This document shows, piece by piece, positions 2,565 to 53,594 of a DNA stretch of 55,792 nucleotides. A program made the translations under genes and the position numbers. Below the pieces are notes generated by a model that had not been told where the DNA came from, searched no databases, and worked only from the letters and a program-made list of their open reading frames with translations. The DNA is from a virus. Its lineage: Duplodnaviria; Caudoviricetes. Each line of letters opens with the position of its first letter. Position 1 is the first letter of the stretch. Where the stretch lies: positions 1 to 55,792 of the IMG/VR virus record IMGVR_UViG_3300045885_000606, one strand, 5' to 3'.

Positions 2565-2567
2565 GGC

Positions 2568-19409: not shown

Positions 19410-19490
19410 GTCTGGCAGTGACCGTGGGGCCACGCCTGTGCGGTCACTTCCTCCTTGCAAGAGAGGTGTGCTTATGTTACACAGAGAGAC

Positions 19491-19972: not shown

Positions 19973-19988
19973 CCAGAAGGAGCATCCT

Positions 19989-22130
19989 ATGCCCGTCCCA
20001 GACATTGCCCTGGTTCCCGAGGAGTACATCGACTTTGATCTGACCTTACGCCTGGATCGTGATCTCGCCATCGCGGCCGGGAACTTGACCCCCCTCCAGC
20101 AGCGCTTCCTGGTGGATATGTACTACCAGGTGCAGGAGTCACGCAAGTCTGCCGCCAACCAGCTCCGCTCTGCCAGGGAAGAACCCAACGCCTTTATCAC
20201 CATGCTGGCGGCGTATCTCATGAAGTTAGAGCGCACAATCGTCAGCGCCCTCAACAAGGCCACCGACCAGCGCCCGGTGACGGCGTGGGCGAAGCGGCAG
20301 CACGGGATTGGCCCCGTACTCACGGCGGGCTTTGCGGCGCACATCGACATCCATATCGCCAAAACGCCTAGTGCTATATGGCGCTATGCGGGACTCGACC
20401 CAACCGTCAAGTGGGCCAAGGGGCAAAAAAGACCATGGAATGCGGCCTTGAAGGTCTTGTCGTGGAAATTGGGTGATTGCTTCTGTCTTAAGCCTGATCA
20501 AACCGTAACAACCAGGCGTGGCTATATCCCCATCTGTGAGGTCGTTAGGGGAGATGAAGTTCTTACGCACCATGGGCGCTGGCAGCGAGTAACGGACGTT
20601 CTCGTGCGCGACTATGCTGGCCCACTCGTCCAACTACGGGCGTTTGGACGAGCAAATCAAGGGCCATGGGTGACGTATGGACATCCTGTCTATACCCGTC
20701 AGCGTCCAGTCATCTACTACAGCGAGGGAGAGAGGCAGCGCTGGAAACATGGAGGAAGAGTCCAAGAGCAGCGCTTTGTTCGCGCCGCACAGATGCGTGC
20801 ATTGTACGAAGAAGGCTTGTTACTGAAAGAGATTGCTACTCGCTTTGGCGTCAGCGAAGCCACAGTGTCACGAAACGTACGGTATCTCAATAATGCCTAC
20901 TCTTCTATGCCTGTAGGGTGGATCGACGCCGAAGACATCCAGCGTGGATGGGATATTTATAGCCCGACTATCCCTGCGACGGCGGCCCGTCTCATGCTAG
21001 ACTTCCGCAGTCTTCCCGACTTGCTCCCAGTAGGAGACCACCAGGTGCGCGCACGAGGGAATCGTGCTATTCCTGTTCCAGCCACGGTCGCTGTCACAGA
21101 GCAAGTTGCTCGTCTCATTGGTCTCTATCTGGCAGAAGGGCATGCGGCGTCACATCAGGGACAACTTGGCTGGTCATTCCATCTCAACGAGCGGAGGTAT
21201 CAGGAGGAGGTCAGACAGACTATCGCTGAGGTTTTTGGACTTAACAGCAGTCTCTATGAGTATGTCGCTGGTCACTCTGCCCAGGTCATCGTGGCTTCAA
21301 AGCCACTCGTTATGCTGTTTGCCCACCTCTTTGGCTCGCATGCTCACACCAAACACCTGCCACCCTCCTGGCTCGAAACACTTGGAGACGCTGAGGCCCG
21401 AGCGCTTCTTCGTGGGCTCTATGATGGCGATGGGCATGATTATCACGGCGACAAACCTGGAGAAGTCCTTACAACGGTCTCGAAGACTCTCGCCTATCAG
21501 GTGCATGATCTCGTGAGGCGTCTTGGCATGCTTGCGTCTATCAATGTGGACAAGGAGGTCTATAAAGTCCGCATACAAGGACGAGAGATTACCGCTGAAT
21601 GGACGCCTACCGGCACCTGGCATAGCGTGAAGTCCATCCCAGAAACCTTCTATGCCGGCCCAGTCTACAATCTCGAAGTGGCTAACGACGAAAGTTATGT
21701 CGCAGAAGGGATTGCTGTCCATAACTGTAAGTTCCACAACCACGAGAAGTGCTTTTACGGGCACATCTATGCCGAGCGCAAGCAACTCGAAGTGATGCGC
21801 AACGCCCGGGGAGATTTTGCCGCGTTGGCGAAAGAGACGCTCGAAGTCCGCAAGATCCAGGATAAAGAGACCCGCCTGGTCTACGAGTCCGGGAAGCTCC
21901 CGGCCGGGCGCCTGGAGCTGCGGGCCCGCCGTGTGGCCGTAAAGCTCTTTCTCGCCCACTGGTTCGAGGTCGACTTTACGCATACCTTTGGCGTGCGCCC
22001 GGAGCTGTCGTATATTCTGATGCACGATCCAGAGACGCATACCCACTACATCCCACCGCCCCTGTGGGATCCGCCCGTAGACGTGAAGGCGCCAGCACCT
22101 AAAGCCGAAGACAGTGAGCATCCCGCGTAA
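19989..22130 (+). CDS. tasA: TIGR-associated (TasA-like) IS110/Nop-domain protein, interrupted by an intein
   Basis: ATG 19989 after AGAAGGAG. Coiled coil LVDMYYQVQESRKSAANQLR; GIGPVLTAGFAAHIDI...PSAIWRYAGLDP (IS110 Transposase_20/Nop-like); C-extein FYGHIYAERK...RARRVAVKLFLAHW. About 299 aa spliced, no RuvC or HNH seen, flanked by dual-repeat arrays. Confidence 0.82.
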   Translation: MPVPDIALVPEEYIDFDLTLRLDRDLAIAAGNLTPLQQRFLVDMYYQVQESRKSAANQLRSAREEPNAFITMLAAYLMKLERTIVSALNKATDQRPVTAWAKRQHGIGPVLTAGFAAHIDIHIAKTPSAIWRYAGLDPTVKWAKGQKRPWNAALKVLSWKLGDCFCLKPDQTVTTRRGYIPICEVVRGDEVLTHHGRWQRVTDVLVRDYAGPLVQLRAFGRANQGPWVTYGHPVYTRQRPVIYYSEGERQRWKHGGRVQEQRFVRAAQMRALYEEGLLLKEIATRFGVSEATVSRNVRYLNNAYSSMPVGWIDAEDIQRGWDIYSPTIPATAARLMLDFRSLPDLLPVGDHQVRARGNRAIPVPATVAVTEQVARLIGLYLAEGHAASHQGQLGWSFHLNERRYQEEVRQTIAEVFGLNSSLYEYVAGHSAQVIVASKPLVMLFAHLFGSHAHTKHLPPSWLETLGDAEARALLRGLYDGDGHDYHGDKPGEVLTTVSKTLAYQVHDLVRRLGMLASINVDKEVYKVRIQGREITAEWTPTGTWHSVKSIPETFYAGPVYNLEVANDESYVAEGIAVHNCKFHNHEKCFYGHIYAERKQLEVMRNARGDFAALAKETLEVRKIQDKETRLVYESGKLPAGRLELRARRVAVKLFLAHWFEVDFTHTFGVRPELSYILMHDPETHTHYIPPPLWDPPVDVKAPAPKAEDSEHPA
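20484..21725 (+). mobile_element. Intein (414 aa) with HTH insertion and LAGLIDADG homing endonuclease
   Basis: Begins CLKPDQTVTT, block B VTYGHPVY, ends VYNLEVANDESYVAEGIAVHN|C. LAGLIDADG blocks LIGLYLAEGH and LLRGLYDGDG; HTH LKEIATRFGVSEATVSR. Confidence 0.93.
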
Positions 22131-22472
22131 AGAGAGCGCAGCCGTCATCGCTGATCAACACGTCAAAAGTGAGCGTAGCCGAGTCTGGTGAGCATCACGT
22201 AAAACATGAGCGGAGCCGTATAGGAAGATCACCACGTCAAAGGGGAGCGTAGCCGAGAGCCCAGAGAGTCCAGTTAAACCTGAGCGCAGCCGTAGATAAG
22301 AAGAACCCCGAAGCACAGGAGCGCAGCCGCTGTGTGCTGAGAACCCCGCATGAGAGGAGCGTCAGCCGCTCTCCACGAGCATCCCGTTGGAAGAGAGCGC
22401 AGCCGAAATAGACGAGTATCCCAAAGAGATCGAGCGCAGCCGTCAGGCTGGAGCACCCCGTAACGCCGAAGC
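22101..22472 (+). repeat. TIGR-like dual-repeat guide RNA array 2 (~10 units)
   Basis: Same edge/loop repeats and ~37 nt period. Example: gagcgtagcc-gagtctggt-gagcatcac-gtaaaacat. The first unit overlaps the last codons of the tas gene. Confidence 0.9.
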
Positions 22473-22486
22473 GACGAGGGCACCAG

Positions 22487-33191: not shown

Positions 33192-36100
33192 TTAGCGTGC
33201 AGGGGTAGGGGCAGGAAGCCCCGGAGGCGGGGTCACCTTGAGTTGCCTGCCGGAACTGAGCACATCCCCTGCCAGAATGCCGGTGAGGAGGCCCATAATC
33301 TCCCCGGCCATCGGACTCTCCGCCGGGGTATGGAGCGCATGCGCAATGGCCCGTGTCGCCTGCGGGTGCGAGAGCAGCCAGGAGAGCGTGCCTCCACCAA
33401 GGCCAACGAGGCCTACTCCCGCCGCGGCCTGCGTGGGGCCAAAGGCATACATCCCGGCAAAGGCGATCCCCCAGGGCGTTATCCGCGCCAGGGCCCCGCC
33501 GCGGCCTGGTCGATCCTCTAAGGCTTTGACCGTCGCCGCCAGATGCCGCAGTTCCCGCTCGCCGTCTTGTCCAAGCATCATGGTCGTAAAGTGCTTGTCC
33601 TTATCCAGATAGGCCATCATGTGCGCCCCGTCGAGGAGGCCAGACTTCTGGTCAGTGCGAAAGAAGCCCTGCGCCAACCAGTCACTTTCCGCCACCCGCC
33701 AGAGGTTCGGGTCTACCGCCGTGACGCGAGCTTTGAAGTTCCCCAACTCCCCGACATCGGCAGCCCTGGGCGCTTTGGACAGCGCGTGCGCTACATCGAC
33801 CTGCGTGATCAGGCGGTCCAGCTCTCCTGCGGGAAAGAGCGCCTGCCTGAAGGCTGGTTGCGCCCGTAACTCATTCATCCTGGTATAGAGACCATTGAGG
33901 TCGACGCGGCCTTCGGCGTGAAAGTAGGGTGCAAGTTCCCGCGTGAACCAGTCTTCCTGGACGGCGCGTTTGAGGGCCGGATCTTTGACCTCATTCATGA
34001 GCTGGGTGAGCCGGGTCGGATCCATCTCCCTGGCCGATTGTTGCAGGGCGTCGGCCTGGCCCAGACGTGCGCGTAACACCTGCAGTTCCCCACCAGGAAA
34101 GAGGATGTCTCGTTCGGCAGGGGGAATCTCACCCAGGCGAGCCGCGAGCTTCCCGGCCTGGGTGAGGTTGGTGGCCACGTCCTGGGTCCCGGCCAGGACC
34201 TTGGAGAGACGATCGCTCCTGACCGCCGCCATGAGGGCGGGATCACCAATCACCCTGGCGAGTTCCCGCAGCTCCCCGGGATCGGACACGGTGAGGGCCC
34301 GCTGCATAGCCGTGGCTTTATCCAGCGCGGTTTTCAGTGGGGTCAGATCGCGGCCAGCAAAGGCGTCACTCTGGGTGGCTTTGGTAAGGGCATGAATCGT
34401 GCGCTCCAGCATCTCTGGTCTGAGCGCTCCCGTCACCGGGTCCTGCGCGGCGCGGATCTGGCGCGTGAGCCACATGGGTCCCACCTGCCGCCAGGCCTCG
34501 GCTGGCGCCACACTGCGGAGCATGGCCGTATCGCCGGGACGCTCGTTCATAACGATGCGTGTCAGGAAGTCATCCGGGCTCATACTGGTCACATCCTGCA
34601 TGAGGGGCGAGTTCCACACCCGGGCCGCATCGGCGTAGAGCGCATCGGCCGCCCGCCAGGACTGATAGAGCCCGGTGGGTCCACTCCCCAGCTTGTTGGC
34701 CGTTTCCCCCATCGAGTTTTTGAGATATTCGCTATATTCCTCCCCCCGCTCGGCCATGCGGTTGCCGATGTTGGAGCCCTCATGACGCTTGAGAATCCCT
34801 GCCTGTGAGCGCAAGGCCTGCGCCTGGTCAAAGGAGACATAGCGCGGTTGCCTGACCAGCGCAGCCAGCCAGGCAATGTCGGGATCGAGCGTTTCCCCGC
34901 GTCTGGGCACCGGCACGCCTTGCTCCAGAGAGACCAGGGGGACTTTGGAGCCCCGGCCATAGATGGCGAGGTCGGCCAGGGCTTTATCCTGCACCCATTT
35001 GAGATCGACCATCTTGCCGTGCAGGAGTTCTTCTAAGGGCTTCATCATCTGATTCACCCGCGGCATAATCCGGTCTTGCAGATCTTTGGCACCCGCCGTC
35101 GTGGTCATGAGCTGGCCTGTCACCGGGTCTGGTCCCAGCTTTTCCGTAATCGCCTGCGCCACATCCAGGCGCAAGGCGTGCATCTGGCTATAGAGGTCTT
35201 CCACGGTGTTGAACGTCACCTTGTCAGGAAGCAGCTTGAGGGCGCGAATCTGGTTAAAGACATTGTGATAGACCGAATCGGTGCTGGCATTCCCCAGCAT
35301 GGGCAGGGTAATATTGCGGACCTGCTGGACCTTGGCAATATCCATGGGCGTTTGCTGCATGCGGCTATAGAGATGCTGATAGACCTGGTTGAGCCTGGCT
35401 TTGGCGTTATCAAGCGACCTGTGAACGCCACTGAGCAGGGTCTTGGGGACTTCGGCGAGGACGTGATCTTCGAGAAACACCTGCTCTTCTCTGGGCGAGA
35501 ACGCCGGCAAGCCCTGCGAGGCACGGTACTGCTTGGCGGTCCTGAGGGCCTGCTGGGCGGACGCAGGAAACATCCCCACGTTGAAGGCCTCGACCTCGCC
35601 TCCGAGCCGCCGCACCTGCGGGATCGTCTCCCCACCGGGAGCCTGCACGCCAAAATCCCGCATCGCCTCATCCACCAGGCGGGTGGTTTCCTGGCCCACT
35701 CTTCCGCCGTGGGGCGTCATGCCCCAGGGATCGACCTCCTGGCGCACCAGGCTCCAGCCCGTAGGCGGAGCAGAGCCGCTCGGCATCGAGGATTCGAGCA
35801 TGCGGAGGTCGTGTTCCAGGGCCTGCTGCGCTACGTCGTAGCGGCTTCGGATACCTCGGCTCACAATAGGGGCGTTTTGCAGGTGATACTCGGTCGAGCG
35901 CAGACTCTTTGATCCCGTCTGAAAGCCCAGGGGGAGGACCACATCCGGGTAGTTTTTCGCCATATAGTCGAGAATCTCTTTGCGGGCAGGCTCGGGGACC
36001 AGGGCATTGCCAATAGAGCGCAGTGCGGCCGGAAGCACGGTCCCTCCGAGTAGCTCACCCGTTCCCCCAAAAAGCGCTTCCATGAGCGGATCGCTGTAGC

Positions 36101-36686
36101 GCTTGGGGTCTGGATCAAAGTAGTTGGCCATATAGGCGCCCGTGCCAGATCCTACCGCCCCCGTCAGCAGCATGCGCATCGGACCAAGGAAGGGATCCAT
36201 GAACGCTCTCAAGCGTGACATCTGGGTCATCTGGTACGCACTCGGAGGGATGCGGCCTTTGACCCCCACAGAGACCAGCATGGGAAAGACATACTGCCAG
36301 GTAAACCGCATGCGCTTGCGGTTTTCGTCTACGCGAGCCTGTTCCGCCTCCGTCAGAGAAATCCCCATCTGCGCCTTCTTCCTGGCCAGATTGTAGAGAG
36401 ACACGGCTTCCAACCAGTTGAGGGGATTGAGGGCGTCAGGCGCTGCCTCGGCAGCATCCTTGAGCATCTCGTAGCTGGTTTCGATATCCGTCATCATGGG
36501 GAAGCCTTGCCGGACGGACTCCTCCACCGACCGCACGCCACGCCGCAGCGGATTCTCTGGCCCGAAGGTGGAGGTATACCAGGACGGGAGCCCACTGGGC
36601 GCTTGAGGCGCAGGGGGTGCCACAATCTCGGCGTCGAGACTTTCCGGATCGACAATCTCGGCATCCAGGCTCTCAGGATCAGCCAT
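33192..36686 (-). CDS. Large internal virion/ejection-like protein
   Basis: ~1164 aa, helical and Ala/Gly-rich, podovirus ejection-protein position. The N-terminus has a duplicated DPESLDAEIV. Confidence 0.6.
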   Translation of the reverse strand: MADPESLDAEIVDPESLDAEIVAPPAPQAPSGLPSWYTSTFGPENPLRRGVRSVEESVRQGFPMMTDIETSYEMLKDAAEAAPDALNPLNWLEAVSLYNLARKKAQMGISLTEAEQARVDENRKRMRFTWQYVFPMLVSVGVKGRIPPSAYQMTQMSRLRAFMDPFLGPMRMLLTGAVGSGTGAYMANYFDPDPKRYSDPLMEALFGGTGELLGGTVLPAALRSIGNALVPEPARKEILDYMAKNYPDVVLPLGFQTGSKSLRSTEYHLQNAPIVSRGIRSRYDVAQQALEHDLRMLESSMPSGSAPPTGWSLVRQEVDPWGMTPHGGRVGQETTRLVDEAMRDFGVQAPGGETIPQVRRLGGEVEAFNVGMFPASAQQALRTAKQYRASQGLPAFSPREEQVFLEDHVLAEVPKTLLSGVHRSLDNAKARLNQVYQHLYSRMQQTPMDIAKVQQVRNITLPMLGNASTDSVYHNVFNQIRALKLLPDKVTFNTVEDLYSQMHALRLDVAQAITEKLGPDPVTGQLMTTTAGAKDLQDRIMPRVNQMMKPLEELLHGKMVDLKWVQDKALADLAIYGRGSKVPLVSLEQGVPVPRRGETLDPDIAWLAALVRQPRYVSFDQAQALRSQAGILKRHEGSNIGNRMAERGEEYSEYLKNSMGETANKLGSGPTGLYQSWRAADALYADAARVWNSPLMQDVTSMSPDDFLTRIVMNERPGDTAMLRSVAPAEAWRQVGPMWLTRQIRAAQDPVTGALRPEMLERTIHALTKATQSDAFAGRDLTPLKTALDKATAMQRALTVSDPGELRELARVIGDPALMAAVRSDRLSKVLAGTQDVATNLTQAGKLAARLGEIPPAERDILFPGGELQVLRARLGQADALQQSAREMDPTRLTQLMNEVKDPALKRAVQEDWFTRELAPYFHAEGRVDLNGLYTRMNELRAQPAFRQALFPAGELDRLITQVDVAHALSKAPRAADVGELGNFKARVTAVDPNLWRVAESDWLAQGFFRTDQKSGLLDGAHMMAYLDKDKHFTTMMLGQDGERELRHLAATVKALEDRPGRGGALARITPWGIAFAGMYAFGPTQAAAGVGLVGLGGGTLSWLLSHPQATRAIAHALHTPAESPMAGEIMGLLTGILAGDVLSSGRQLKVTPPPGLPAPTPAR

Positions 36687-36783
36687 CAAAATTCCCTTTG
36701 GGTATCCCGCCGTTCAGGGCGGGAGTGAAAAAGGGTTGCCCGCCAGGGCAACAGTTCTGCTGCGGCAGCATGCCGCATACCAC

Positions 36784-36813
36784 TTGCATAGGTTACAAAA
36801 TACCGGGTACACT
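36784..36813 (+). promoter_or_regulatory. Sigma70-like promoter copy 1 (antisense to the late genes)
   Basis: TTGCAT-18 nt-TACACT; boxA-like GCTCTTTCACAAC at 36886-36898. Confidence 0.5.
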
Positions 36814-36946
36814 TGGAACAATACGGCATCGCATCGTCAGGAATAGCTGGTGTCCAGCGCCGTACACGATGCACCAAGGTGCGCGGCTCTTTCACAACTT
36901 CAGCTTCGCCGGGTTCCAGAGCGTAGGGCTCTGGGTAAAAGTTGAA

Positions 36947-37479
36947 CCGACGAATGAGCAGAACGCGCGGCAACCCCCTGGCTTTAGCCATGGGGAAGGA
37001 TAGCGCGTTGGTCCGCAGGACCAATTCCTGCTGCGGCAGCATGCCGCATACAGTGTTGCATAGGGCACAAAATAACAGGTACAATCTCTGTAGTTCTTTG
37101 AAACTCAGCATAGGGCGTTGTCGCAGGAAGTCTGCGACGTAAAATGTTGAACGCCAGAGGATCAGATGCTTAATCTGCTGCCGGACTCGTTGCGTCAGCC
37201 GCATCGGATGTATTGCCCCTCCGTATCGTGCCAGGAGCGAGAGCCGTCTAGGCAGCCCTGGTGTGGGTATGCAGGTGATCATCTGTGTCAACACCCCGAA
37301 TTGACCCGTATCGTTGTGCTTCCACAGGCAACGTCGCGAGGGAAGCGGGACGGTAAGTGCTGGACAGGTGCTCCGGGTGTGGGAGCAACACCAGAGCCAG
37401 CACGGGGCCGGAATGGCCCACGAGATGTACCGCGAGGTACAGTCTGGAATCCCCTGGCTTTAGCCATGGGGAGGTTCAA
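36947..37479 (+). mobile_element. Non-autonomous IS200/IS605-type element carrying a structured RNA (no tnpA or tnpB)
   Basis: Subterminal hairpin CCCCTGGCTTTAGCCATGGGG at both ends (36975-36995 and 37451-37471). Right end GAGGTTCAA; TTGAA precedes the inferred left end. No transposase ORF; the left boundary is approximate. Confidence 0.65.
37056..37085 (+). promoter_or_regulatory. Sigma70-like promoter copy 2
   Basis: TTGCAT-18 nt-TACAAT; boxA-like GTTCTTTGAAAC at 37093-37104. Confidence 0.55.
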
Positions 37480-37645
37480 AGAAACCGGACTGTGGGGCAT
37501 GCTTCACAGTCGTGCGCAAGGTGACAGGGCGCTTAAGCAGGGAAAGCATCAGGGCTCCTCTCTGGTGGTCGGTAACTGCAACCGCACGTTTCAGCACGTG
37601 TCTTCGATGTTCGAAGCATCGGCCTTCAGGCCGGTGAGGATGTCA

Positions 37646-40399
37646 TCACTCATCCTTTATGATATAGTTCGGCTTAAGACCGAGCTGACGAATGATCTCT
37701 TCCCGAGTGATCGTAGGATATTTCTCCTTCGACTTCTTCCAGGTTTCGTCAATGATGGCCTTCGTCACCACTTTCTTCCCGGCGTCTGCCGCGCCTTGGG
37801 CCGGCGCTGGCGCGGTGGTCGTCTGCCCTCTGGGTGGCTGCGCCAGGGGCTGGGGCAGGGTACGAGGGGGGGACGGTTTGCCGACAATCTCGTCCCAGGG
37901 TTTGAGCGCCGCCATGTCGTCGGTGCGGTAGTCAAAGACCGTGTTTTCAGGCCGGTAGCCCTGGTTCTTGCTGGTCTCGGCAAACTGCGCTGCGTGGCGC
38001 ACAAAGCCCTTGTTCTGCGCGACGGCGAGTCGCCTGGCAATGTTGATGTACTCGTTGTAGATATTATCGGGGAGGACCTGGCCGCTCCTCAGCCAGATGC
38101 CCCAGCGTGCCACCTGCTCGCGCAAGTTCCCCCCGTGGGAAAAGAGTTCATGCTCTTCATTGCGGACACCGGTGCGGTCATCGAGGAGCTTGGCAAACGT
38201 GTAAATGAGGGCCTCGTCGCCAGCGACGGAGCGGTTGGGCAGCTCACTCACGGTTTTAATCTTGGCCCAGGCAGACATGACCTCCTGGTAGCCCTTGTTC
38301 GCCGGCATGTCATTCCACTCTTTGAGGCGCTGGAACTCCCCTTCACTCAGCACCTTGTTCAGTTCGAGATACTGCTGCTGATAGGCCAGGGCGAGACGTT
38401 GCTCGGAGAGTGCCAGTTCGGCGTCGGCACGGCGACTGCGCTCATCCATCTCCTGCAGATCGCGGGCGTGTCGCTCGGTCTTTTGCGCCGCAGCTTGGAC
38501 CGCCAGGTCGTGCTCTTTTTGGTGGCGCTTCTCGACCTCCTCTTTGATTGCGGCCTCACGTCTGGCCCGCTCGGCGGCTTCCCCCGCCCAGCCATGCCGC
38601 TCGCCCTTGCGTTCCTGTTCTGTTCTGCCCCACTGCTGGCGTTCTTCAGCCCTCGTCGCCGCTTTCTCCTCGCGTTCCGCCTTCTCCACCTTGAGTTGCG
38701 AGGGCGGAAATCGTGTCGACCCTGGCGGCAGCGCCTCGCCTGGCTTCGCATCAGGGGGCGTCTCGCCTGCTGGCAGTGGCGGGAGGGGTGGTTGCAGCAT
38801 AGGATCGCGCTCTCGATTCTCGACCTGGTAGCGGTAGCTTGCCTCGTCCTCAGGCAGCGGCATGAGAATCGTTGGGGCTCCTGCTGCTGGCGTCGTCGGT
38901 GAGGCTTCTGGCACCAGCGGCGCCATAGGATCCCTGGGTGCTGGGGCTGGCGCTGGCGCTGGGGCTGGCGCGGTGCCCTGAAGATGCTGTCCACGCAAGT
39001 TCGATTCATCCATGGCTGCCCGCGTGGCGGCTTCGACCGAATCATAAGACGGGATCGTCTCCCCTTTCTTCACGCGGGCGAGGGCGTGGGCCACGGCTTT
39101 TTGGATTTGTCCTGGCGTGGGTTTCTCGCCCCTGAGGAGTCGATCGACACCAATTTGCCCATTGACCAGCAGCGGGATATTCGTATGCCTGGCGCTATTC
39201 AAGCGTGGATCACTTACGGTCGTAAGCATGACCGTGGCGGTTTGCCCATTAGGCATCTTCTGTGGCCCTAAATACCCCTCCGCCGGAGCCCCAGAAGGAA
39301 AGGTCGGTGTCGCCGGTGCGGGTGCCTGCTCGGAGACAGGGGTCCCAGAGGGCGCTGGCGCTGGCGCTGCGGGAGGTGGAGGGGCTGCAGATGCTGGCGA
39401 CGGGGTGGGCTGTGCCTGAGGTGCGGGTGTCTCTCCCTTCGTGCGGCCATGGGTCAAATCCCAGGCCAGCTGCATGGAGCGGAGCGTATCCGTGCCTTCG
39501 GCGCCTGGTACCGTTTTGTAGGCATCGATCATGGCTTTTGACGCCTCTGGCCCCACCATCAGAAATTCCAGCATGTACTGCCGGGTAAACTCGTCTATGG
39601 GGGGCTGTCCAGTCACCCGTGGCGGCGCCTTCATCCCGGAAGGGGGAGCGGCCGGCGCAGGCGGACTGGGTGGGACGGGATAGCCCTCTGGCCTGGTTGC
39701 ACCTGGCTGGCCTGAGAGACCCACCCCTCCAGGCAGTGGCGCCTGCACACCCTCGACAGTAACGCCCTTGTCGCGGAGAATCTGTTGGTATTCCCCCTGC
39801 AAGCTCACCAGTTGTTGCTGGTAATACGCCATGTTCATCTCATGCACGGCCCGAATCGTGGTATTTTGCTGGTCAATATCGGTGATCGCCTTCATCCGGG
39901 CGATATTCGCCTGAATCTGGTCGATTTGCGCTTTCACGTAGGGTTCCCGCACATCAGCCGCCCTTTTCCGCTCGGCAATGGTGGCTTTGCGAAACTCATC
40001 TTGCGACGTGGCGCTAAACATCGGCGCCTGCATGCGCGAGAGTTCGGACCTTGCCACCTCCTGGACCTGAGGATCAGGGTTTTTGAGCATCGTAACCAGG
40101 TGATTCATTTTCTCGACAGCCGCTACCTGCTTGGCATGCTCTGGCCGCGCATCAAACTCGTAGCGCCTGGTTTGAGGATTGTAGAACCACGCTCCCCAGG
40201 GCGAGATAATGGGCTTATACGGTTGCTCCACGTCCCGCCGGAGTTTCTCCACGCCGAGCTGGGCTTTCTCCACTTCGAGGGGGATGAGTTCCTGCTGGGC
40301 GCGGACTTTGGGGAGGTTCAAGACCGCATCGGAATAGGCCCGGCCCATCTCCCCCAGCGCAGGACCGATGACGTCGGCAATGCCAGCAAAGGAGACCAT
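37646..40399 (-). CDS. Large internal virion/ejection-like protein with Pro-rich linkers and coiled coils
   Basis: ATG 40399 after GGAGG; composition and position. Confidence 0.6.
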   Translation of the reverse strand: MVSFAGIADVIGPALGEMGRAYSDAVLNLPKVRAQQELIPLEVEKAQLGVEKLRRDVEQPYKPIISPWGAWFYNPQTRRYEFDARPEHAKQVAAVEKMNHLVTMLKNPDPQVQEVARSELSRMQAPMFSATSQDEFRKATIAERKRAADVREPYVKAQIDQIQANIARMKAITDIDQQNTTIRAVHEMNMAYYQQQLVSLQGEYQQILRDKGVTVEGVQAPLPGGVGLSGQPGATRPEGYPVPPSPPAPAAPPSGMKAPPRVTGQPPIDEFTRQYMLEFLMVGPEASKAMIDAYKTVPGAEGTDTLRSMQLAWDLTHGRTKGETPAPQAQPTPSPASAAPPPPAAPAPAPSGTPVSEQAPAPATPTFPSGAPAEGYLGPQKMPNGQTATVMLTTVSDPRLNSARHTNIPLLVNGQIGVDRLLRGEKPTPGQIQKAVAHALARVKKGETIPSYDSVEAATRAAMDESNLRGQHLQGTAPAPAPAPAPAPRDPMAPLVPEASPTTPAAGAPTILMPLPEDEASYRYQVENRERDPMLQPPLPPLPAGETPPDAKPGEALPPGSTRFPPSQLKVEKAEREEKAATRAEERQQWGRTEQERKGERHGWAGEAAERARREAAIKEEVEKRHQKEHDLAVQAAAQKTERHARDLQEMDERSRRADAELALSEQRLALAYQQQYLELNKVLSEGEFQRLKEWNDMPANKGYQEVMSAWAKIKTVSELPNRSVAGDEALIYTFAKLLDDRTGVRNEEHELFSHGGNLREQVARWGIWLRSGQVLPDNIYNEYINIARRLAVAQNKGFVRHAAQFAETSKNQGYRPENTVFDYRTDDMAALKPWDEIVGKPSPPRTLPQPLAQPPRGQTTTAPAPAQGAADAGKKVVTKAIIDETWKKSKEKYPTITREEIIRQLGLKPNYIIKDE

Positions 40400-40400
40400 G

Positions 40401-42134
40401 TTAAATGCCTCCAAAATTCTCGTAGTCAAAGAACGACGGGTTCAGCCAATCCGCGGTATAATCGCCGGTGAGTTCTGGGAGGGCCCGGTCCCCATAGAGA
40501 TCCCGTAAGGTCTGGACGGCCGCTTGCGCTTGCTCAGGAGAGCTAGACGGCTGCGTATTTCCCAGCCCCAGAAGCGTCACGATGTTCCCCAACTGACTCC
40601 CCAGGTTTTTGAGCGTGTCGCCTGAGAGCCCCTGACCGTAGGGGTTGTATGTCGGCACACTGCTTGACCCCGGCGCTTGCGGGAAGGCCTGCCCTGCAGA
40701 GGCAGGCGGCGTGGGATTCGCCGTGTAGGGCCCTGTATAGCCTCCTAGAGCGGCTTGTTGTGTCCCCACGTAATTTTGTATGGATTGCTGCCTGAGGCCA
40801 GGCATGAGCCTGGCAAAGGCCTCTGCGGTGGCACGGTTGGCAGCCCCGCCGTCCGACTGGCCACGCATGGCCAGATCGTGCTGCACGGCCCGGGCGATGT
40901 CCGACATGGTGGCCTCGGTGAGCGGCTGGTAGAGGGCGTTCGCCCCGGCAATGACCTGCGCCGGATCGGCCAGGCGTCCACCGATGGCCTGCCGGGCAGC
41001 CCGGGCCGCGTCGGTTTCCAGGTTTTGCTGGATGTCAGTGGACGCCACGCGCTCGTTATAGCCCTGGAGTTGCTGGTTGTAGAGACTCGCCAGAGCCAGC
41101 AGTTGCTGGTAGAGCGCTTGCTGCTGGTTGTAGGCCTGCCCCTTCTGGCCATAGATATCTTCGGACACCCCTTGCCCTTGAATCCCAGAATAGAGCGACA
41201 GGCCGCTTGAGCCGAGTAAGGCGATCAGCGCCGGCAGAAGCTGGGCCCAGTTGACGTTGTCCATCGTTCCTCCTCCGGCACTCCCGCCGTATCCTGTGCT
41301 GCCTCCTGGCTGGTCAATGGCACTCCCCACGGTCCCGCCGGTCACACTCCCCACGGTGGAGAGCCCGGGAATCCCCGTCGCGGCACCGAGCAGTCCGCCC
41401 ACCACGCTCCCGACATTCCCTCCCGATTGATCCTGCGACAGGGAGTAGAGGCTATTGGCTGCAGAGAGCGCCTGTGTCGCCTGTCCGACCGTGATGCCGG
41501 TGCCGGGAATGAGCGTGTTGCTCACGGCTGCCAGGCCGGTATACGGGGCAGGGGTCGCGGCAATGGGCGCAATCCCTGCCGCTGGCGCACCCAGAGCTGC
41601 GCTTTCTCCAGTCGCCAGGGCGATGGGTCCCAGTTCGGCTGGCAGAGGCGAGGCCACCGCACCAGCTCCGCCCAGGGCCGGTGCGGCAAACCCCCCAAAT
41701 GCCCCTGCCAGACCGGTCGCCGCACCCAGCGCCAGGCCTGCCGTCACAAACTCGTTGGAGAGGAGAGATCCCAGCCCCCAGCCATCGCCGGCATTGTCCC
41801 CGTAGCGTCCGCCTGCCACGGGGATACCAGCAGCGGACCGCTTGAGGAACATCGCCAGATCACGGGTATAGACCGCATCACCGTAGGGGAGATCCTGCGG
41901 CAGGGGGACGATCTCGCCAGAGGACCACGCCAGTTGCTGGGCCCGGTCCAGCAAGTCCAGACGGGCAGGGCGCTGCTCTATCGCCGTGGGGTCAATGTTA
42001 TACTCCGCATCACCGGAGCCCTCCGTAAACTTGAGCCCAGGATAACTCTCGTAGACCGTGTTCGGATCGCCCAGGGTACTCTCGTGACCATAGTAGAAAT
42101 TATACTGTGGCTCATACGGGGTAGCATAGGGCAT
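40401..42134 (-). CDS. Internal virion/DNA-transfer (pilot)-like protein
   Basis: Gly/Ala-rich hydrophobic segments and a Gln-rich coil; follows the tail stabilisation gene. Confidence 0.6.
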   Translation of the reverse strand: MPYATPYEPQYNFYYGHESTLGDPNTVYESYPGLKFTEGSGDAEYNIDPTAIEQRPARLDLLDRAQQLAWSSGEIVPLPQDLPYGDAVYTRDLAMFLKRSAAGIPVAGGRYGDNAGDGWGLGSLLSNEFVTAGLALGAATGLAGAFGGFAAPALGGAGAVASPLPAELGPIALATGESAALGAPAAGIAPIAATPAPYTGLAAVSNTLIPGTGITVGQATQALSAANSLYSLSQDQSGGNVGSVVGGLLGAATGIPGLSTVGSVTGGTVGSAIDQPGGSTGYGGSAGGGTMDNVNWAQLLPALIALLGSSGLSLYSGIQGQGVSEDIYGQKGQAYNQQQALYQQLLALASLYNQQLQGYNERVASTDIQQNLETDAARAARQAIGGRLADPAQVIAGANALYQPLTEATMSDIARAVQHDLAMRGQSDGGAANRATAEAFARLMPGLRQQSIQNYVGTQQAALGGYTGPYTANPTPPASAGQAFPQAPGSSSVPTYNPYGQGLSGDTLKNLGSQLGNIVTLLGLGNTQPSSSPEQAQAAVQTLRDLYGDRALPELTGDYTADWLNPSFFDYENFGGI

Positions 42135-47997: not shown

Positions 47998-49294
47998 TTA
48001 TGCGTTATTGATGCCGTACACCCGCTGATGGTGTCTCAGCGACAAGAACTGGAGCTGCCAGAGCAGATAAATCCTTGATATAGCTACAAACTGGTATGTG
48101 GGCTGAATGAACGGATCTATTCTGAAGTGCATATTGGGGTGGAATATAGGCCTAATATACTTCTCTGTGTAGAATTGCATCTCCCCAGCCGGAACGAACT
48201 GATCATGGAGAACTACAGCGCGGTTGAACATCAGGTTGCGGAAGCCGCCGCGGGTGGTTTCCTCGTCTTCGATGAAGCGCTGGTTATTGACCAGGGTGCC
48301 CCAGTAGGCGTTCCAGCCCGCTTGCGTGGTGGTAATGAGCGTCGGCTCTTCGTTGCCGAATGAGCAGCGCCCGTATTCCTGCTGCATGCCGGCGGTCGTG
48401 ACCAGAGACGCACCAGCCGATTGCCAGATGGTATCGGCATCGGCATCGGTGGGCCCATTGCCGCCGCCACAGCGCCACACAAAGCCCGTCGAGGCGTTGT
48501 TCTGGATGGTGATCCCGGCATAGGTGCCTGAGGCGGCCAGCGCCAGGGGCACGCCGTCGACGTCGATGGCGGTATTTTGCGGCGCGGTCCGCTGAATGGC
48601 GCGGTTGAGCTTCATGAGCATCGAGCCAAAGGAGATTTCTTCTTTGACCCGGACCAGGTTGACCACGCCGGGAGGCCCCTGGTTCAAGACCGCGTCGATC
48701 ACGGGAATGGCGATCAATTGTTGGTACGCACGCCCATAAGTTCTGTTATCCCTAAGGCTCTTTATCCTTAGGTTCTGCATATTACTATGCAGCTCCGACT
48801 ATCTCTTCACCCATACGTCAGGGTGCCCGGCACTCGTGGAGGGCTTATTCTTTCGTCACCCTCTAGTCTGTACGCCTTCCGTCCCCCTGGGCCTCACGGC
48901 TTACATGGACGGCTTGGCTCGGGATTGTCCCCAGCATGACCTGGTAGGAGTTTCCCCGAATTCACCGGGTTTCACATGCCAGGTTTCCCTGGCAAGGCAG
49001 CAGCGGTGTTTACTGCAACTCTGCCGGTTGAGCACTGTCTGTCACGTCAGTGCTCAACATCTGCGTACCCCAAAAAGCCCCACCAGTTAGTTCTTCTTGA
49101 TTTACTACTGTCCAGACAATTGCCCCACCATGAAAACGCCGACCCAGACGCGTCAACCTCCATAACAGCGGTGAAGGGCGGAACACCGCGTCGACCAGTT
49201 GTGGCTGAAAGTACTTAGTGGTAACACCGTTAGCCGTATTGACAAGTGTAATAGGCGGTTGTGATAGCTGGCTACCTATACCCCCTGCTGCCAT
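47998..49294 (-). CDS. Major capsid protein, two exons: 49294-49012 and 48734-47998 (339 aa spliced)
   Basis: Joining gives ...SAQPAELQ-W-RAYQQLIAIPVIDAVLNQG... in frame (1020 nt). Contains LVDAVFRPSPLL and GGFRNLMFN; follows the scaffold-like gene. Confidence 0.85.
48735..49011 (-). ncRNA. Group I self-splicing intron (277 nt, no ORF)
   Basis: On the minus strand the 5' exon ends in U, paired in P1 (GCAGU/GCUGC with U.G). P/Q GAAUUCGGGGAAA...AAUCCCGAGCCAAGC, R GUACAGACUAGA, S GAAGAGAUAGUCGG, terminal G. Confidence 0.92.
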
Positions 49295-49312: not shown

Positions 49313-50083
49313 TTATGCAGCCGCCATAGGCTGATAGAACATCTTGAGGATATCCTGGTCTTGGAGTGCCGCGACTTCGGCTTCGTCGATGGTTTTAAAG
49401 CCTGGTGCTGGCACCTGCATGGTGTGCGGCGGACCGTAGGGGGCGTAGGGGACTTGCGGGTTCTGTAGCTGCAACTCCTGGCGTGCTCGCTCCAGGGTTG
49501 CCGCTTCCGTTTCTGCTCTGACCCGCGCCATATCGGCCTCGTAGTTCATGGCGCGGGAGGCTAAGACCGGATCGTTAATGTGATGTTCCTGGCGGAACCG
49601 GTTTAAGGCGTCCAGGTCCAAGGCCGGGTTGGACTGCTTCATCTGGCCCAGCATGATGAGCTGGGGCAGGGCCTGCCACATCTGACCATTCTGCGTGGCG
49701 AGCTTTTTCAGTTCGTCGATGGCCCGGGCGTTTTCACTCGCCACCCGCATCGCCTCGACGCTTTGCTGGTAGATGGGGTTTAAGAGTTCATCGCCAGAGT
49801 AATCGATCGGGGGCTTGCCTCCTGGCTGCTGCGTCTGCGTCTGTGGCTGCGGGTGCTGCGGCAGAGCCTGAAGCATCTGCGCCAGGTGGCCTTCCAGGAC
49901 ACGCTTCTCATCGGCATAGACCCCGGCCCGCTGGCGCCAGGAGTCGACTTCTGCTTTGGGCACAAAGGCCTGCCGCAAATCGCCCAGCCGCACCACACCC
50001 TGGCCATTCCCCAGATCGAGCTGCATGGTGTCTGGGAATCGGGCACTATCACGGATTACATCATTCCAGTTTGGATCAGCCAT
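49313..50083 (-). CDS. Capsid scaffolding-like protein
   Basis: Helical, Gln-rich, immediately upstream of the capsid gene. Confidence 0.6.
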   Translation of the reverse strand: MADPNWNDVIRDSARFPDTMQLDLGNGQGVVRLGDLRQAFVPKAEVDSWRQRAGVYADEKRVLEGHLAQMLQALPQHPQPQTQTQQPGGKPPIDYSGDELLNPIYQQSVEAMRVASENARAIDELKKLATQNGQMWQALPQLIMLGQMKQSNPALDLDALNRFRQEHHINDPVLASRAMNYEADMARVRAETEAATLERARQELQLQNPQVPYAPYGPPHTMQVPAPGFKTIDEAEVAALQDQDILKMFYQPMAAA

Positions 50084-51171: not shown

Positions 51172-51390
51172 CTACTCCTGCGAGCGCTGACCTATGAGAG
51201 ACGTTTCGATCTGGCGCTTGAGCGTATCCTTGAGCGTTTGTGTGCCTTCTTTCTCCAGCGCATGCATAGTCTCTTTGGAGACATGGAAAGAGACCCCCTC
51301 ACTTCCCTGTCCCCCTTCGACAAGGTAGCCGGTCGAGCCATCTTTCCCACGTACTTCCCGTATGCTGGTAATTTCTGGGTCTTTACTCAC
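51172..51390 (-). CDS. Hypothetical protein
   Basis: Coupled to the portal stop codon. Confidence 0.55.
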   Translation of the reverse strand: MSKDPEITSIREVRGKDGSTGYLVEGGQGSEGVSFHVSKETMHALEKEGTQTLKDTLKRQIETSLIGQRSQE

Positions 51391-53135
51391 CTTCCCCTCC
51401 TGCTTCCGCGCTGGGCTTCGGCGGCTTGCGCTGCCATCCTGAGCGCTTCCTGGTTATGGCCCGCGATCGTTTCCCCATTAGGAAATTCCAAAATGTCATA
51501 GAGATCTTTGTCCGATGCCATGCGACCAATGCGGGCCAGCATGACCGCCAGACGCTTGACCATGGTTTTCGACTGAATGGCAAACGACGTCGGATCGACG
51601 TGCGCCGCGTACTCCTCCCAGTGCCTGAGGGGTTCCCAGATAACCGGCTTCCACTGCTGGCCCTGCATATAGGGGAGGACCCGGGTGTGGGTGTAGAACT
51701 GCCCCATACGGGCGAGGACCTTCGAGACCAGGCGAGAGACCGCCTTGTAGAGGTAGCGGGCGCGGAGGCGGGTTAAGCCCATGGCCTGGGTAATCTCGGT
51801 TTCCGTCAGCTCTGCAGAGACATTGCCTCTCCCCTGCACACCTTCCCGGGTGGGTTGGTGGCCCAAAAGTTCGCGCATGTACGAGCGGTACCGGGCTCCT
51901 GAAAGGACAAGATCAGGGGGGAGCGGCGGCGGCCTGACGATTTCCACCGTCGAGCCCGGGCGTTTTAAGATGACTTGCCCGGGAATGTCGGCAAACGTCC
52001 GGCTGTCGATCCCGGAATTGGCGTCTGCCAGCACCAGGCCCTTTTGCAGCCGGAGCATGTTTTCTAAGGTGAGCGATTCAGCCTTATCGGCCGCACGCTG
52101 AAGTTCTAAGAGTTCTGCCACCAGGGAGCGCTTGGGCCAGAAGCGGTGGACTGGAGGTTGGAGCAGGGTTTGGATGAGATCAAAGCCGTCCCCGTAGGGC
52201 ATCTGCGCGTCATAGAGGACCACATCAGCGGTGCACTGGACCAGGCGTCCCTGAGGGTATTTGTAGCGCACCCCGCGCCGGAGCTGCCGGATGCCCTCGT
52301 TGTTAAAGTGCTCGTAGGGATAGGCCTCGAGGGTGGTGTCTTTACACCTGAGGGAATAGACCGACACCCGCGTATCCATGCCGCCTGAGGGGATGGGCGA
52401 GGAGATGGGGTAGAGCGGCGTCAAAATCCCCAGGCCTGAGGGCCTCCCTGGAGAGGTCATAAAGGGTTGGAGGTCCTGGGGCTGCGCCACATCAGGGCGC
52501 ACCCGGTGCCCATGGTCTGGCCACTTCTGGCGCACCTCGTTGACATCCATGACATCGAGCGTTACGACGTAGCGCCAGTCCTCATCCGACGTGGCAAAGG
52601 GATCGGGAAAGACGGTCTGCGGCGCCCTGGCCCTTACCACAATTTCTCCCTGACCGCCAGCGAGGAGCGGGTCCCAGGGCACTTCAAAAAAGCCGCACGG
52701 CCAGATGGCTGCGTCAGCGCACACATCGAGAATGGTGAGGTCGACAAAGTAGCGCTGCCAGAAGGCCTGGATGGCACGCTCCACCCCGTCGTCACGCTCC
52801 GCCGTGCGCGGGTTGGCGGTGACGTAGACGGTGGGGGAATTATCGGTCAGGTCAGAGAGTTCGGAGAGGATGAGGCGCTTCATCTCGTTAATCTGCATAG
52901 GAGACTTATAGGAGGGGAGTGCTTCAGGCCAGTACGAACCCCAGTACCCTGAGGCCCAATCGTCCCATTCTGTCTGGGTAATGCATTTGTTTCTCGCTGT
53001 TAGTGCATCTAAGTACAACCCCTGGACCCATTGGCACAGGAGCTGCTCGCCTTGCCTTTGGCCGCCTGGCGTCGTCTCTGGTTCGGGAACGTGCGTGCCG
53101 TTGGTAGTGGGCATCCTGAGGACCTGGGTCGCCAC
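51387..53135 (-). CDS. Portal protein (P22-like)
   Basis: 582 aa; INEMKR..., VFPDPFA, LLELQR, IPGQVI; position after terL. Confidence 0.8.
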   Translation of the reverse strand: MATQVLRMPTTNGTHVPEPETTPGGQRQGEQLLCQWVQGLYLDALTARNKCITQTEWDDWASGYWGSYWPEALPSYKSPMQINEMKRLILSELSDLTDNSPTVYVTANPRTAERDDGVERAIQAFWQRYFVDLTILDVCADAAIWPCGFFEVPWDPLLAGGQGEIVVRARAPQTVFPDPFATSDEDWRYVVTLDVMDVNEVRQKWPDHGHRVRPDVAQPQDLQPFMTSPGRPSGLGILTPLYPISSPIPSGGMDTRVSVYSLRCKDTTLEAYPYEHFNNEGIRQLRRGVRYKYPQGRLVQCTADVVLYDAQMPYGDGFDLIQTLLQPPVHRFWPKRSLVAELLELQRAADKAESLTLENMLRLQKGLVLADANSGIDSRTFADIPGQVILKRPGSTVEIVRPPPLPPDLVLSGARYRSYMRELLGHQPTREGVQGRGNVSAELTETEITQAMGLTRLRARYLYKAVSRLVSKVLARMGQFYTHTRVLPYMQGQQWKPVIWEPLRHWEEYAAHVDPTSFAIQSKTMVKRLAVMLARIGRMASDKDLYDILEFPNGETIAGHNQEALRMAAQAAEAQRGSRRGR

Positions 53136-53527: not shown

Positions 53528-53539
53528 AGGTCTCTCCTT

Positions 53540-53594
53540 ATGTACCGCGAGGTACAGTCTGGAATCCCCTGGCTTTAGCCATGGGGAGGTTCAA
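53540..53594 (+). mobile_element. Isolated IS200/IS605-type right-end fragment
   Basis: 55 bp identical to 37425-37479. Confidence 0.75.

What the first reader, a model, noticed from the sequence alone, without database searches (positions are those of the whole stretch)
36690..37645. ~950 nt non-coding island: duplicated promoter-boxA-structured RNA module antisense to the late operon
Two diverged copies (~36733-36950 and ~37006-37157) share, in order: a hairpin with compensatory changes (gttgccc/gggcaac vs ttggtcc/ggaccaa), an identical tgcggcagcatgccgca hairpin, TTGCAT-18-TACA(C/A)T, a boxA-like tract, then a variable hairpin followed by GTAAAA(T)GTTGAAC. Structure is conserved while sequence varies, and rrn-type boxA-like signals are present; both point to a long functional ncRNA. 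More hairpins continue to ~37640.
Basis: partly seen in the sequence, partly recalled or inferred. Interest (0 to 1): 0.7.

Follow-up and report, generated by a model that had tools for sequence, protein, structure and literature searches.

The report
Nested gene-less TnpB transposon relics
The 950-base gap between two phage late genes is filled by two nested, protein-less leftovers of TnpB-type (IS200/IS605) jumping genes that keep their hairpin ends, their promoter and their guide-RNA tails; this is a known kind of element.

Summary
In detail: two diverged copies of hairpin, identical 24-mer, TTGCAT-18-TACA(C/A)T and a leader hairpin lie where stated.

- **What the module is.** A related phage record (G005) has the same module directly before a tnpB gene. 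The module is therefore the left end plus tnpB promoter of an IS200/IS605-family element.
- **Extent.** The island (36687-37645) runs from the start codon of one minus-strand gene to the stop codon of the next.
- **Outer element.** 36687-36958 plus 37480-37645, about 438 nt, with no gene. Its right end is a UUCA hairpin with a sub-threshold Rfam HgcC match.
- **Inner element.** 36959-37479, 521 nt, inserted into the outer one. Its end hairpin flanks tnpA and tnpB in many bacteria. Two copies in another phage contig (L186) show its empty site.
- **What is missing.** The phage has no TnpB and no TnpA. boxA-type antitermination is not supported.
- **Transcription.** Metatranscriptome contigs cover the island; the strand is only hinted at.

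Such PATE-like guide-RNA mini-transposons are described, and this scan has met them in phages before. Result: a new member of a known kind, of low to moderate interest.

The parts
36684..36686 (-). Likely ATG start codon of the downstream late gene Y (ORF 33192-36689, 1165 aa). The element's left end begins at the next base.
   Evidence: the ORF listing takes the TTG at 36689 as the start. The ATG at 36686 has AAAGGGA 7 nt upstream on the minus strand; this reading is by eye.
36687..36734 (+). Left end (LE) of the outer element: an outer stem (36695-36699 with 36730-36734) encloses a hairpin (36705-36711 with 36718-36724) whose loop is G-UUCA-G. On the minus strand the outer stem contains the Shine-Dalgarno sequence of gene Y.
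   Evidence: Fold, (z -4.0 for 36687-36783). Same architecture before tnpB in L185 and in L179, L182 and L186.
36735..36752 (+). Hairpin 1 of module A (7 bp, loop GCCA). On the minus strand it is followed by a T-rich run and scores as terminator-like.
36761..36777 (+). 7-3-7 palindrome of module A, inside the 24-mer that is identical in module B.
   Evidence: A related palindrome stands at the same place in L185 and L179.
36784..36813 (+). Promoter-like 30-mer A (TTGCAT, 18 nt, TACACT), the homologue of the tnpB promoter of the intact element.
   Evidence: In L185 a variant of this 30-mer ends 6 nt before the tnpB ATG. The consensus promoter scan did not call it.
36814..36958 (+). Leader of the outer element: boxA-like tract 36886-36897, hairpin 36915-36933 (loop GUAG), then GTAAAAGTTGAAC at 36934-36946. 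It ends at the insertion point of the inner element.
   Evidence: 67-69% identical to two leaders in L186 that run on without the insert.
36959..37479 (+). Inner gene-less IS200/IS605 element (521 nt): LE, second promoter module, conserved interior, guide-RNA-like scaffold and right end (RE).
   Evidence: Boundaries come from the empty-site homologues in L186 and from LE/RE matches to bacterial tnpA/tnpB elements.
36976..36996 (+). LE hairpin of the inner element (21-mer with a bulged T), within an outer stem 36963-37009.
   Evidence: LE-type context is followed by Y1_Tnp in 4 of 4 bacterial loci tested.
37008..37024 (+). Hairpin 1 of module B (7 bp, loop GCA).
   Evidence: Compensatory variants in an RNA-library contig.
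37032..37048 (+). Palindrome of module B, identical to that of module A.
37056..37085 (+). Promoter-like 30-mer B (TTGCAT, 18 nt, TACAAT).
37095..37155 (+). Conserved 61-nt leader unit of module B: boxA-like tract, hairpin 37120-37138, then GTAAAATGTTGAAC at 37139-37152.
   Evidence: Two RNA-library contigs match only 37095-37155 and differ on both sides.
37336..37479 (+). Guide-RNA (omegaRNA)-like scaffold and RE of the inner element. RE hairpin 37452-37472; the element ends at 37479.
   Evidence: A 34-35-nt exact match to the ends of TnpB elements. Two upstream hairpins covary with 4 TnpB-linked ends, 6 of 25 pairs. z -3.65. A contig variant starts to match at 37336.
37480..37645 (+). 3' part of the outer element: guide-RNA-like region with the sub-threshold HgcC match (37552-37659), RE hairpin 37618-37635 (loop UUCA), and element end at about 37645.
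   Evidence: (40.8 bits against a gathering score of 50, E 1.3e-7). The position of the end is inferred to within about 3 nt.
37646..37648 (-). Stop codon (TGA) of the upstream late gene X (ORF 37646-40429, 927 aa), abutting the right end.
53540..53594 (+). Solitary 55-nt copy of the inner element's RE (two hairpins plus end) in another late-gene junction. It lies 12 nt from the start codon of a small minus-strand gene.

Best explanation
The island is transposon debris, not a phage-built regulator.

**Origin.** An IS200/IS605-family element of the TnpB-only (IS1341-like) type sits exactly between the stop codon of late gene X and the start codon of late gene Y. It has lost tnpB. It keeps:
- its left end (nested hairpins);
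- two small hairpins;
- the tnpB promoter;
- a leader;
- a guide-RNA-like 3' region that ends in a UUCA hairpin.

A second gene-less element of a sister family later inserted into that leader. Its end hairpin flanks tnpA and tnpB in many bacteria, and it brought its own left end, promoter module and guide-RNA scaffold. That insertion is why the module appears twice.

**How it works (inferred).**
- The hairpins on the plus strand are the single-strand DNA sites of a Y1 transposase, which is not encoded here. Any movement therefore needs TnpA in trans.
- The two promoters would fire rightwards, antisense to the late operon. They would give RNAs that end in scaffold plus a guide copied from the flank (from 37480 for the inner element, from 37646 for the outer).
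- With a TnpB supplied in trans, for example by a co-infecting relative like G005, these RNAs could cut element-free alleles and favour copying of the element.
- Late mRNA must read through the island on the minus strand. The left end supplies a Shine-Dalgarno sequence for gene Y.

**Shown:** homology, the nesting, the intact relative, the absence of TnpB and TnpA, and presence in RNA libraries.

**Inferred:** promoter activity, guide function, use of the Shine-Dalgarno sequence. I put the identity at about 0.9, and any present guide-RNA activity at about 0.3.
For: **1. An intact relative.** In L185 (record G005) the order is: LE hairpin with a GUUCA loop inside an outer stem, a small hairpin, a TGCGGC-N3-GCCGCA palindrome, a variant of the 30-mer, an ATG 6 nt later, then a 375-aa ORF. 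That ORF carries OrfB_IS605 (78.9 bits) and Cas12f1-like_TNB (63.9 bits). After it comes a UUUA hairpin plus an end motif.

**2. The inner hairpin is a transposon end.**
- Copies within one genome diverge right after the end motif.
- ORFs upstream of RE-type copies are TnpB in 6 of 8 tested.
- ORFs after LE-type copies are Y1_Tnp in 4 of 4 tested, and TnpB in 1 further locus.
- The window matches these ends exactly over 34-35 nt.
- The two hairpins before the end covary with 4 TnpB-linked ends.

**3. Empty site of the inner element.** Two leaders in L186 read straight from the sequence left of 36959 into the sequence right of 37479.

**4. Related modules.** Modules in 5 further viral contigs and 2 metagenome contigs are bounded by LE and RE hairpins that resemble each other within an element. 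They lie next to non-homologous genes.

**5. The outer right end.** It gives a full-length HgcC alignment. HgcC is reported to hold the RE-like UUCA tetraloop of IS1341-type elements (PMC4615843; abstract and passages read).

**6. No transposon protein here.** The window has no match to PF07282, PF01385 or PF01797 at E up to 10. tblastn with 13 TnpB proteins gave only chance-level scattered matches and none in the island below E 0.4.

**7. RNA libraries.** Contigs of 4 metatranscriptome runs (3 studies) cover 36665-37536 in pieces. One is a 135-nt insert, 37084-37218, with sequencing adapters on both sides. Their order implies plus-strand RNA if the library is of the usual stranded kind.
Against: - No Rfam family reaches its gathering score in the island. 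HgcC scores 40.8 against 50, and weaker at the relatives' ends (27.1 and 21.7 bits). In L182 the match falls on the left-end hairpin, not the right end.
- The sigma-70 consensus scan did not call either 30-mer; its first hexamer matches only 3 of 6 positions.
- The outer 3' region and both leaders fold no better than shuffles.
- The outer LE and RE hairpins of the window resemble each other only loosely.
- The exact outer boundaries rest on analogy. No empty X/Y junction was found: searches for relatives of gene Y found none.
- The RNA evidence is from assembled contigs. These cannot give strand or level and may include DNA. The insert that starts at 37084 lies inside the presumed -10, so it cannot start at that promoter.
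- The minus-strand 202-aa frame is open in 4 other contigs. 3 of 5 differences in one variant are synonymous in that frame.
Confidence: 0.85

Rival explanations
1. Domesticated cassette. The elements began as transposon relics but now serve the phage. The plus-strand promoters make antisense RNA against the 3' end of gene X. The left-end hairpin that pairs with gene Y's Shine-Dalgarno sequence tunes its translation.
For: - The left end abuts the start codon of an opposite-strand gene in 6 of 8 elements examined, and in each of those 6 it offers a purine-rich Shine-Dalgarno-like stretch (read by eye).
- The outer stem pairs that stretch with a pyrimidine run.
- The island is held at 0.93-0.99 of sampled words in 18 soil DNA runs, of which 8 may be the source sample.
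- RNA-library contigs cover it.
Against: - The same architecture stands before tnpB in G005, where no opposite-strand gene abuts it.
- The modules sit beside unrelated genes in different phages, as mobile DNA does.
- Adjacency to a start codon may only reflect the target motif plus survival of harmless insertions.
- No test of expression or of any effect was possible.
Confidence: 0.1
2. One reading: one long functional plus-strand ncRNA, made by tandem duplication and read through by a boxA/Nus-type antitermination complex.
For: - Two promoter-like sites, each followed by a tract that resembles the rrn boxA as I recall it, and by hairpins.
- Contigs from RNA libraries span 37127-37480 and 37068-37256.
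Against: - The boxA-like tracts lie about 73 and 9 nt from the -10 element. They are not conserved in place or sequence in the other modules.
- The two copies are accounted for by a nested insertion with a demonstrable empty site.
- The hairpins match transposon ends.
Confidence: 0.04
3. The minus-strand ORF 36686-37294 (202 aa), or a shorter form of it, encodes a real small protein that explains the conservation of 37069-37290.
For: - 4 non-self proteins match at E 1e-20 to 1.3e-15.
- In one contig variant, 3 of 5 base changes are synonymous in this frame.
Against: - No Pfam or PHROG family matches.
- GC by codon position is 0.60/0.47/0.58, against 0.67/0.46/0.74 for the neighbouring gene.
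- The matches cover only 26-54% of the ORF and start and stop at different places.
- The conserved stretches include the translated 30-mer promoter and the transposon hairpin.
- The frame runs across LE hairpins and promoters that are non-coding in the intact element.
- A 1-nt deletion at 37160 occurs in one contig.
Confidence: 0.03

Closest known systems
PATEs / PATE-like non-autonomous IS200/IS605 elements that encode omegaRNAs (haloarchaea; Geobacillus stearothermophilus)
   Same: - No protein gene; LE and RE subterminal hairpins on one strand; a guide-RNA-like 3' part ending at the RE; dependence on TnpA and TnpB in trans.
- The bioRxiv paper 10.1101/2023.03.14.532601 (passages read) states that PATEs often encode omegaRNAs that must be acted on in trans by TnpB from other elements.
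- PMC4615843 (abstract and passages read) reports a transcribed PATE-derived RNA and fused LE-RE forms. L131 and L151 hold such a fused 51-nt form.
   Different: - Located in a phage late operon, exactly between a stop and a start codon.
- Two elements nested one in the other.
- Each keeps a conserved 30-nt promoter-like motif that is the tnpB promoter in the intact relative.
- The left end offers a Shine-Dalgarno sequence to the neighbouring gene.
Intact TnpB-only (IS1341-type) IS200/IS605 element of the related phage record G005 (L185 about 517-1812)
   Same: The same order: LE hairpin in an outer stem, small hairpin, palindrome, 30-mer, then a right end with a tetraloop hairpin and an end motif.
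   Different: G005 has a 375-aa tnpB. The window has none, and no remnant of one was detectable. The hairpin sequences differ.
Rfam HgcC family (RF00062)
   Same: Full-length alignment of 37552-37659 to the model, including the 3' UUCA hairpin and the purine-rich tail.
   Different: The score of 40.8 is below the gathering score of 50. HgcC was defined in archaea (stated in PMC4615843). Not a member by Rfam's rule.
Earlier notes of this scan on gene-less TnpB guide-RNA mini-transposons in phages (e1-5771376, e1-5665173, e1-5665137, e1-5356712)
   Same: Protein-less IS200/IS605 derivative in a phage gene gap, with hairpin ends, a promoter and a guide-RNA scaffold, and with TnpB absent from the record.
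   Different: Those are single elements of 210-345 nt in other genomes. Here there are two nested elements (about 438 and 521 nt) plus a solitary 55-nt end. I did not check those notes.

Membership tests
IS200/IS605-family transposon, gene-less (PATE-like) derivative | Subterminal imperfect hairpins at both ends, on the same strand | tested here: met
   - Inner element: 36976-36996 and 37452-37472, the same 21-mer.
- Outer element: 36705-36724 and 37618-37635.
- Both contexts match the LE- and RE-type contexts of bacterial and phage elements.
IS200/IS605-family transposon, gene-less (PATE-like) derivative | Discrete insertion with a recognisable empty site and no target duplication | tested here: met
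   - Inner element: two homologous leaders in L186 run across the junction without the 521 nt, and no duplicated flank is seen.
- Outer element: no empty site was found. Its position between stop and start codon is inferred.
IS200/IS605-family transposon, gene-less (PATE-like) derivative | Conserved short motif 5' of the left end (target / TAM) | tested here: inconclusive
   - Outer type: the left end follows CAT in 6 of 8 elements.
- Inner type: it follows AATGAG in the window and in L131/L151.
- Boundaries were read by eye.
IS200/IS605-family transposon, gene-less (PATE-like) derivative | Relatives with the same ends carry tnpA (Y1) and/or tnpB | tested here: met
   TnpB in 6 of 8 and 2 of 2 ORFs tested; Y1_Tnp in 4 of 4.
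IS200/IS605-family transposon, gene-less (PATE-like) derivative | Absence of transposase and nuclease genes in the element itself | tested here: met
   No PF07282, PF01385 or PF01797 match in the whole window at E up to 10, and no tblastn match above chance level.
TnpB omegaRNA (functional guide RNA) | Transcript that ends in a scaffold plus a guide of about 16-20 nt and is bound and used by a TnpB | not testable with these tools
   Scaffold homology only. The RNA contigs give neither ends nor strand. The putative guides have no second match in the window beyond one 4-mismatch hit.
Rfam HgcC (RF00062) | Score at or above the gathering threshold of 50 bits | tested here: not met
   40.8 bits. 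Not listed in the gathering-mode scan.
HEARO / IscB omegaRNA (RF02033) | Match to the Rfam model | tested here: not met
   No HEARO match at E up to 10 in 36500-37800. The model did ring in a control locus, L039.
rrn/lambda-type boxA (Nus) antitermination site | boxA at a conserved place downstream of the promoter, conserved among homologues | tested here: not met
   The tracts lie about 73 and 9 nt from the -10. There is no conserved counterpart in the other modules. The consensus itself is recalled, not taken from a tool.

The most novel reading that the evidence does not exclude
These phage-borne, TnpB-less elements may be working guide-only drive elements.

- Their conserved promoters would make omegaRNAs whose guides match the element-free X/Y junction (outer) and the element-free leader (inner).
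- During co-infection with a TnpB-carrying relative such as G005, or in a host with matching TnpB, the empty alleles would be cut and converted.
- The left end would have evolved to land on start codons and to carry a replacement Shine-Dalgarno sequence, so that tightly packed late operons can be colonised without harm.
Probability: 0.15. Interest if true: 0.65.

Novelty: new member of a known kind. Interest (0 to 1): 0.3.

Why it matters
The result explains a puzzling structured non-coding island as mobile-element debris and removes a false lead (boxA antitermination, long regulatory RNA).

It has modest wider value:
- It documents nested PATE-like guide-RNA elements in a soil phage lineage, together with an intact TnpB-bearing relative. 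That pairing gives a natural system for testing whether orphan omegaRNAs use TnpB in trans.
- It shows that such elements can sit precisely between a stop and a start codon while supplying a ribosome-binding site.
- It links sub-threshold HgcC hits to IS200/IS605 right ends, which is useful for annotation.

Tried and rejected
**Searches that found nothing or only chance matches**
- blastn of the island against the phage collection: no match.
- Relatives of gene Y in viral contigs: none.
- The 17-mer and 20-mer palindrome patterns in viral and genome collections: only chance hits in coding or unrelated DNA.
- A 26-mer specific to the phage's right end: 0 hits in the genome and viral collections.
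- The 30-mer in bacterial genomes: 0 hits.
- The metagenome scan gave 2 true contigs (one sequence) and 1 chance hit, L183.
- ARAGORN: no tRNA or tmRNA.
- Relatives of the translated 37069-37294 in viral contigs: none.

**Ideas dropped**
- A protein-binding operator reading of the palindrome. The relatives keep a hairpin but change spacing and sequence.
- A phage-RNA-polymerase promoter reading of the 30-mer. There are only 2 copies in the genome.
- The 735-aa ORF at 19923-22130 as a hidden RNA-guided nuclease. It has intein, LAGLIDADG and HTH domains.
- A tnpB pseudogene inside the island.

**RNA contigs.** Parts of the island without cover (37554-37610) and depth differences between runs are not evidence of anything.

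**Not done**
- A covariance model of the right-end regions was not built, because the shared 34-mer would make its hits circular.
- Supplementary files of the two papers were not available; they may hold the HgcC and PATE alignments.

Full report
**Setting**

The window is a complete IMG/VR phage record of 55,792 bp. Its first and last 126 bases are identical. Genes from about 29 to 55.6 kb lie on the minus strand. They include a portal (51387-53135), a major head protein gene interrupted by a group I intron (Rfam, 65.5 bits, 48775-49060), and tail-fibre-like genes. The finding lies between minus-strand ORFs 33192-36689 (1165 aa) and 37646-40429 (927 aa).

**Check of the observation**

All the listed features are present.
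- The two copies align with 72% column identity.
- They share an identical 24-mer.
- They share a 30-nt promoter-like motif found nowhere else in the window, with 0.00 expected by chance.
- Hairpin 1 differs by paired changes.
- The left-end blocks and 37336-37479 fold more stably than shuffles (z -4.0, -3.3, -3.65). The leaders and 37500-37645 do not.

**First lead: a transposon-end hairpin**

A 55-nt stretch, 37425-37479, recurs exactly at 53540-53594. Its core 21-mer also stands at 36976-36996.
- That 21-mer occurs in at least 120 stretches of very diverse bacterial genomes and in 41 viral stretches.
- In RE-type contexts, copies within one genome diverge right after a short end motif. The upstream ORF is a TnpB in 6 of 8 tested.
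- In LE-type contexts (outer stem around the hairpin), the downstream ORF is a Y1 transposase in 4 of 4 tested, and TnpB in one more.
- The window's copy at 37452-37472 is RE-type, with a 34-35-nt exact match to TnpB element ends. Two preceding hairpins covary with 4 TnpB-linked ends, 6 of 25 pairs.
- The copy at 36976-36996 is LE-type.

**Second lead: the module is a left end plus the tnpB promoter**

The 30-mer pattern found 5 viral contigs and 2 metagenome contigs, and no bacterial genome.

One of these phages, G005, encodes a TnpB. In L185 the sequence reads: LE hairpin (GUUCA loop) in an outer stem, a small hairpin, a TGCGGC-N3-GCCGCA palindrome, a variant of the 30-mer, an ATG 6 nt later, a 375-aa tnpB, then a UUUA hairpin with an end motif.

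In the gene-less relatives (L178-L182, L186) the same left part is followed by 170-300 nt of non-coding sequence. This ends in a hairpin that resembles the element's own left hairpin. These elements lie beside non-homologous genes, as mobile DNA does.

**Anatomy of the island**

*Outer element.* It occupies 36687-36958 plus 37480-37645.
- Its left end starts at the base after the likely ATG of gene Y.
- Its right end is a UUCA hairpin at 37618-37635, with the end at about 37645. It abuts the TGA of gene X.
- 37552-37659 aligns full-length to Rfam HgcC at 40.8 bits, below the gathering score of 50.
- Gomes-Filho et al. (PMC4615843; abstract and passages read) report that HgcC holds the RE-like UUCA tetraloop of IS1341-type tnpB elements, and that a PATE-derived RNA is transcribed.

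*Hypothetical empty junction.* Without the island, the minus strand would read stop codon directly followed by ATG, with AAGGA 7 nt upstream. This is my reading and is an inference.

*Inner element.* It occupies 36959-37479. Two leaders in L186 are 67-69% identical to 36786-36958. They continue directly into the homologue of 37480 onwards, which gives the empty site.

*Protein genes.* The phage has no TnpB or TnpA, and no tnpB remnant was detectable in the island.

**Transcription**

Contigs from 4 metatranscriptome runs (3 studies) cover 36665-37536 in pieces, plus parts of both flanking genes. Contigs cannot give strand or level, and the runs were chosen because they hold this stretch.

One 167-nt contig is a 135-nt insert (37084-37218) with sequencing adapters on both sides. 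By my recollection of adapter order, the second mate reads the plus strand. In the usual stranded libraries that means plus-strand RNA. This is a weak hint. Its 5' end lies inside the presumed -10, so it is not a primary end of promoter B.

**Results against my reading**

- The consensus promoter scan did not call the 30-mers.
- No Rfam family reaches threshold.
- The HgcC-like hit in L182 falls on the left-end hairpin.
- The outer boundaries are by analogy.
- The 202-aa minus-strand frame has 4 non-self matches. 3 of 5 differences in one variant are synonymous in it.

The conserved stretches of that frame include the translated promoter and the transposon hairpin, and the ORF ends differ between copies. 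I therefore read it as DNA-level conservation of other copies of the inner element. The conserved interior 37069-37290 remains unexplained.

**The boxA-like tracts**

They lie about 73 and 9 nt from the -10 and have no conserved counterpart in the other modules. I found no support for Nus-type antitermination.

**Comparison and novelty**

Gene-less IS200/IS605 derivatives (PATEs), some encoding omegaRNAs that need TnpB in trans, are described in bioRxiv 10.1101/2023.03.14.532601 (passages read) and in PMC4615843. Notes of this scan report several such mini-elements in phages (not checked by me).

What is particular here:
- the nesting of one element in another;
- the stop-to-start placement, with a Shine-Dalgarno-like stretch supplied by the left end (6 of 8 elements abut a start codon);
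- an intact TnpB-bearing relative.

Verdict: a real feature, largely explained, and a new member of a known kind.

Noticed in passing
window 19486-19972 and 22130-22479: Two arrays of repeats with a 37-nt period and a conserved 11-nt core flank ORF 19923-22130 (735 aa). That ORF has HTH, LAGLIDADG and intein-splicing Pfam hits and a PHROG 'transposase' hit at its N-terminus. This may be iterons around an intein-bearing replication or DNA-binding gene.
   Followed up: partly
window 48775-49060 (-): A group I intron (Rfam RF00028, 65.5 bits) lies between ORFs 47998-48780 and 49313-50083. The first of these matches major head protein families.
   Followed up: no
window 10-135 and 55667-55792: A 126-nt exact direct repeat at the two ends of the record, as expected of a circularly assembled or terminally redundant genome.
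   Followed up: no
window 53540-53594: A solitary 55-nt copy of the inner element's right end stands 12 nt from the start codon of a small, basic minus-strand ORF (start at 53528). There is no left end nearby.
   Followed up: partly
L131 9238-9288 and L151 (same sequence): Distantly related phage contigs hold a 51-nt single-hairpin form. It has the inner element's left arm (44 nt identical to window 36953-36996), fused through one hairpin to the right-end tail. It is like the fused LE-RE forms reported in haloarchaea.
   Followed up: partly
window 37069-37290: The interior of the inner element is conserved in at least 4 other contigs, and the minus-strand frame is open in each. In one RNA-library variant, 3 of 5 changes are synonymous in that frame. 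I found no function for this stretch.
   Followed up: partly
L186 (reverse complement) about 2400-3000 and 3860-4330: One 6.7-kb phage contig carries two gene-less elements of the same family. One combines a left hairpin close to the inner type with a leader of the outer type, so the families recombine.
   Followed up: partly
L179 4385-4387: In a relative, the opposite-strand ORF next to the right end appears to use the complement of the UUCA loop as its stop codon (read by eye).
   Followed up: no
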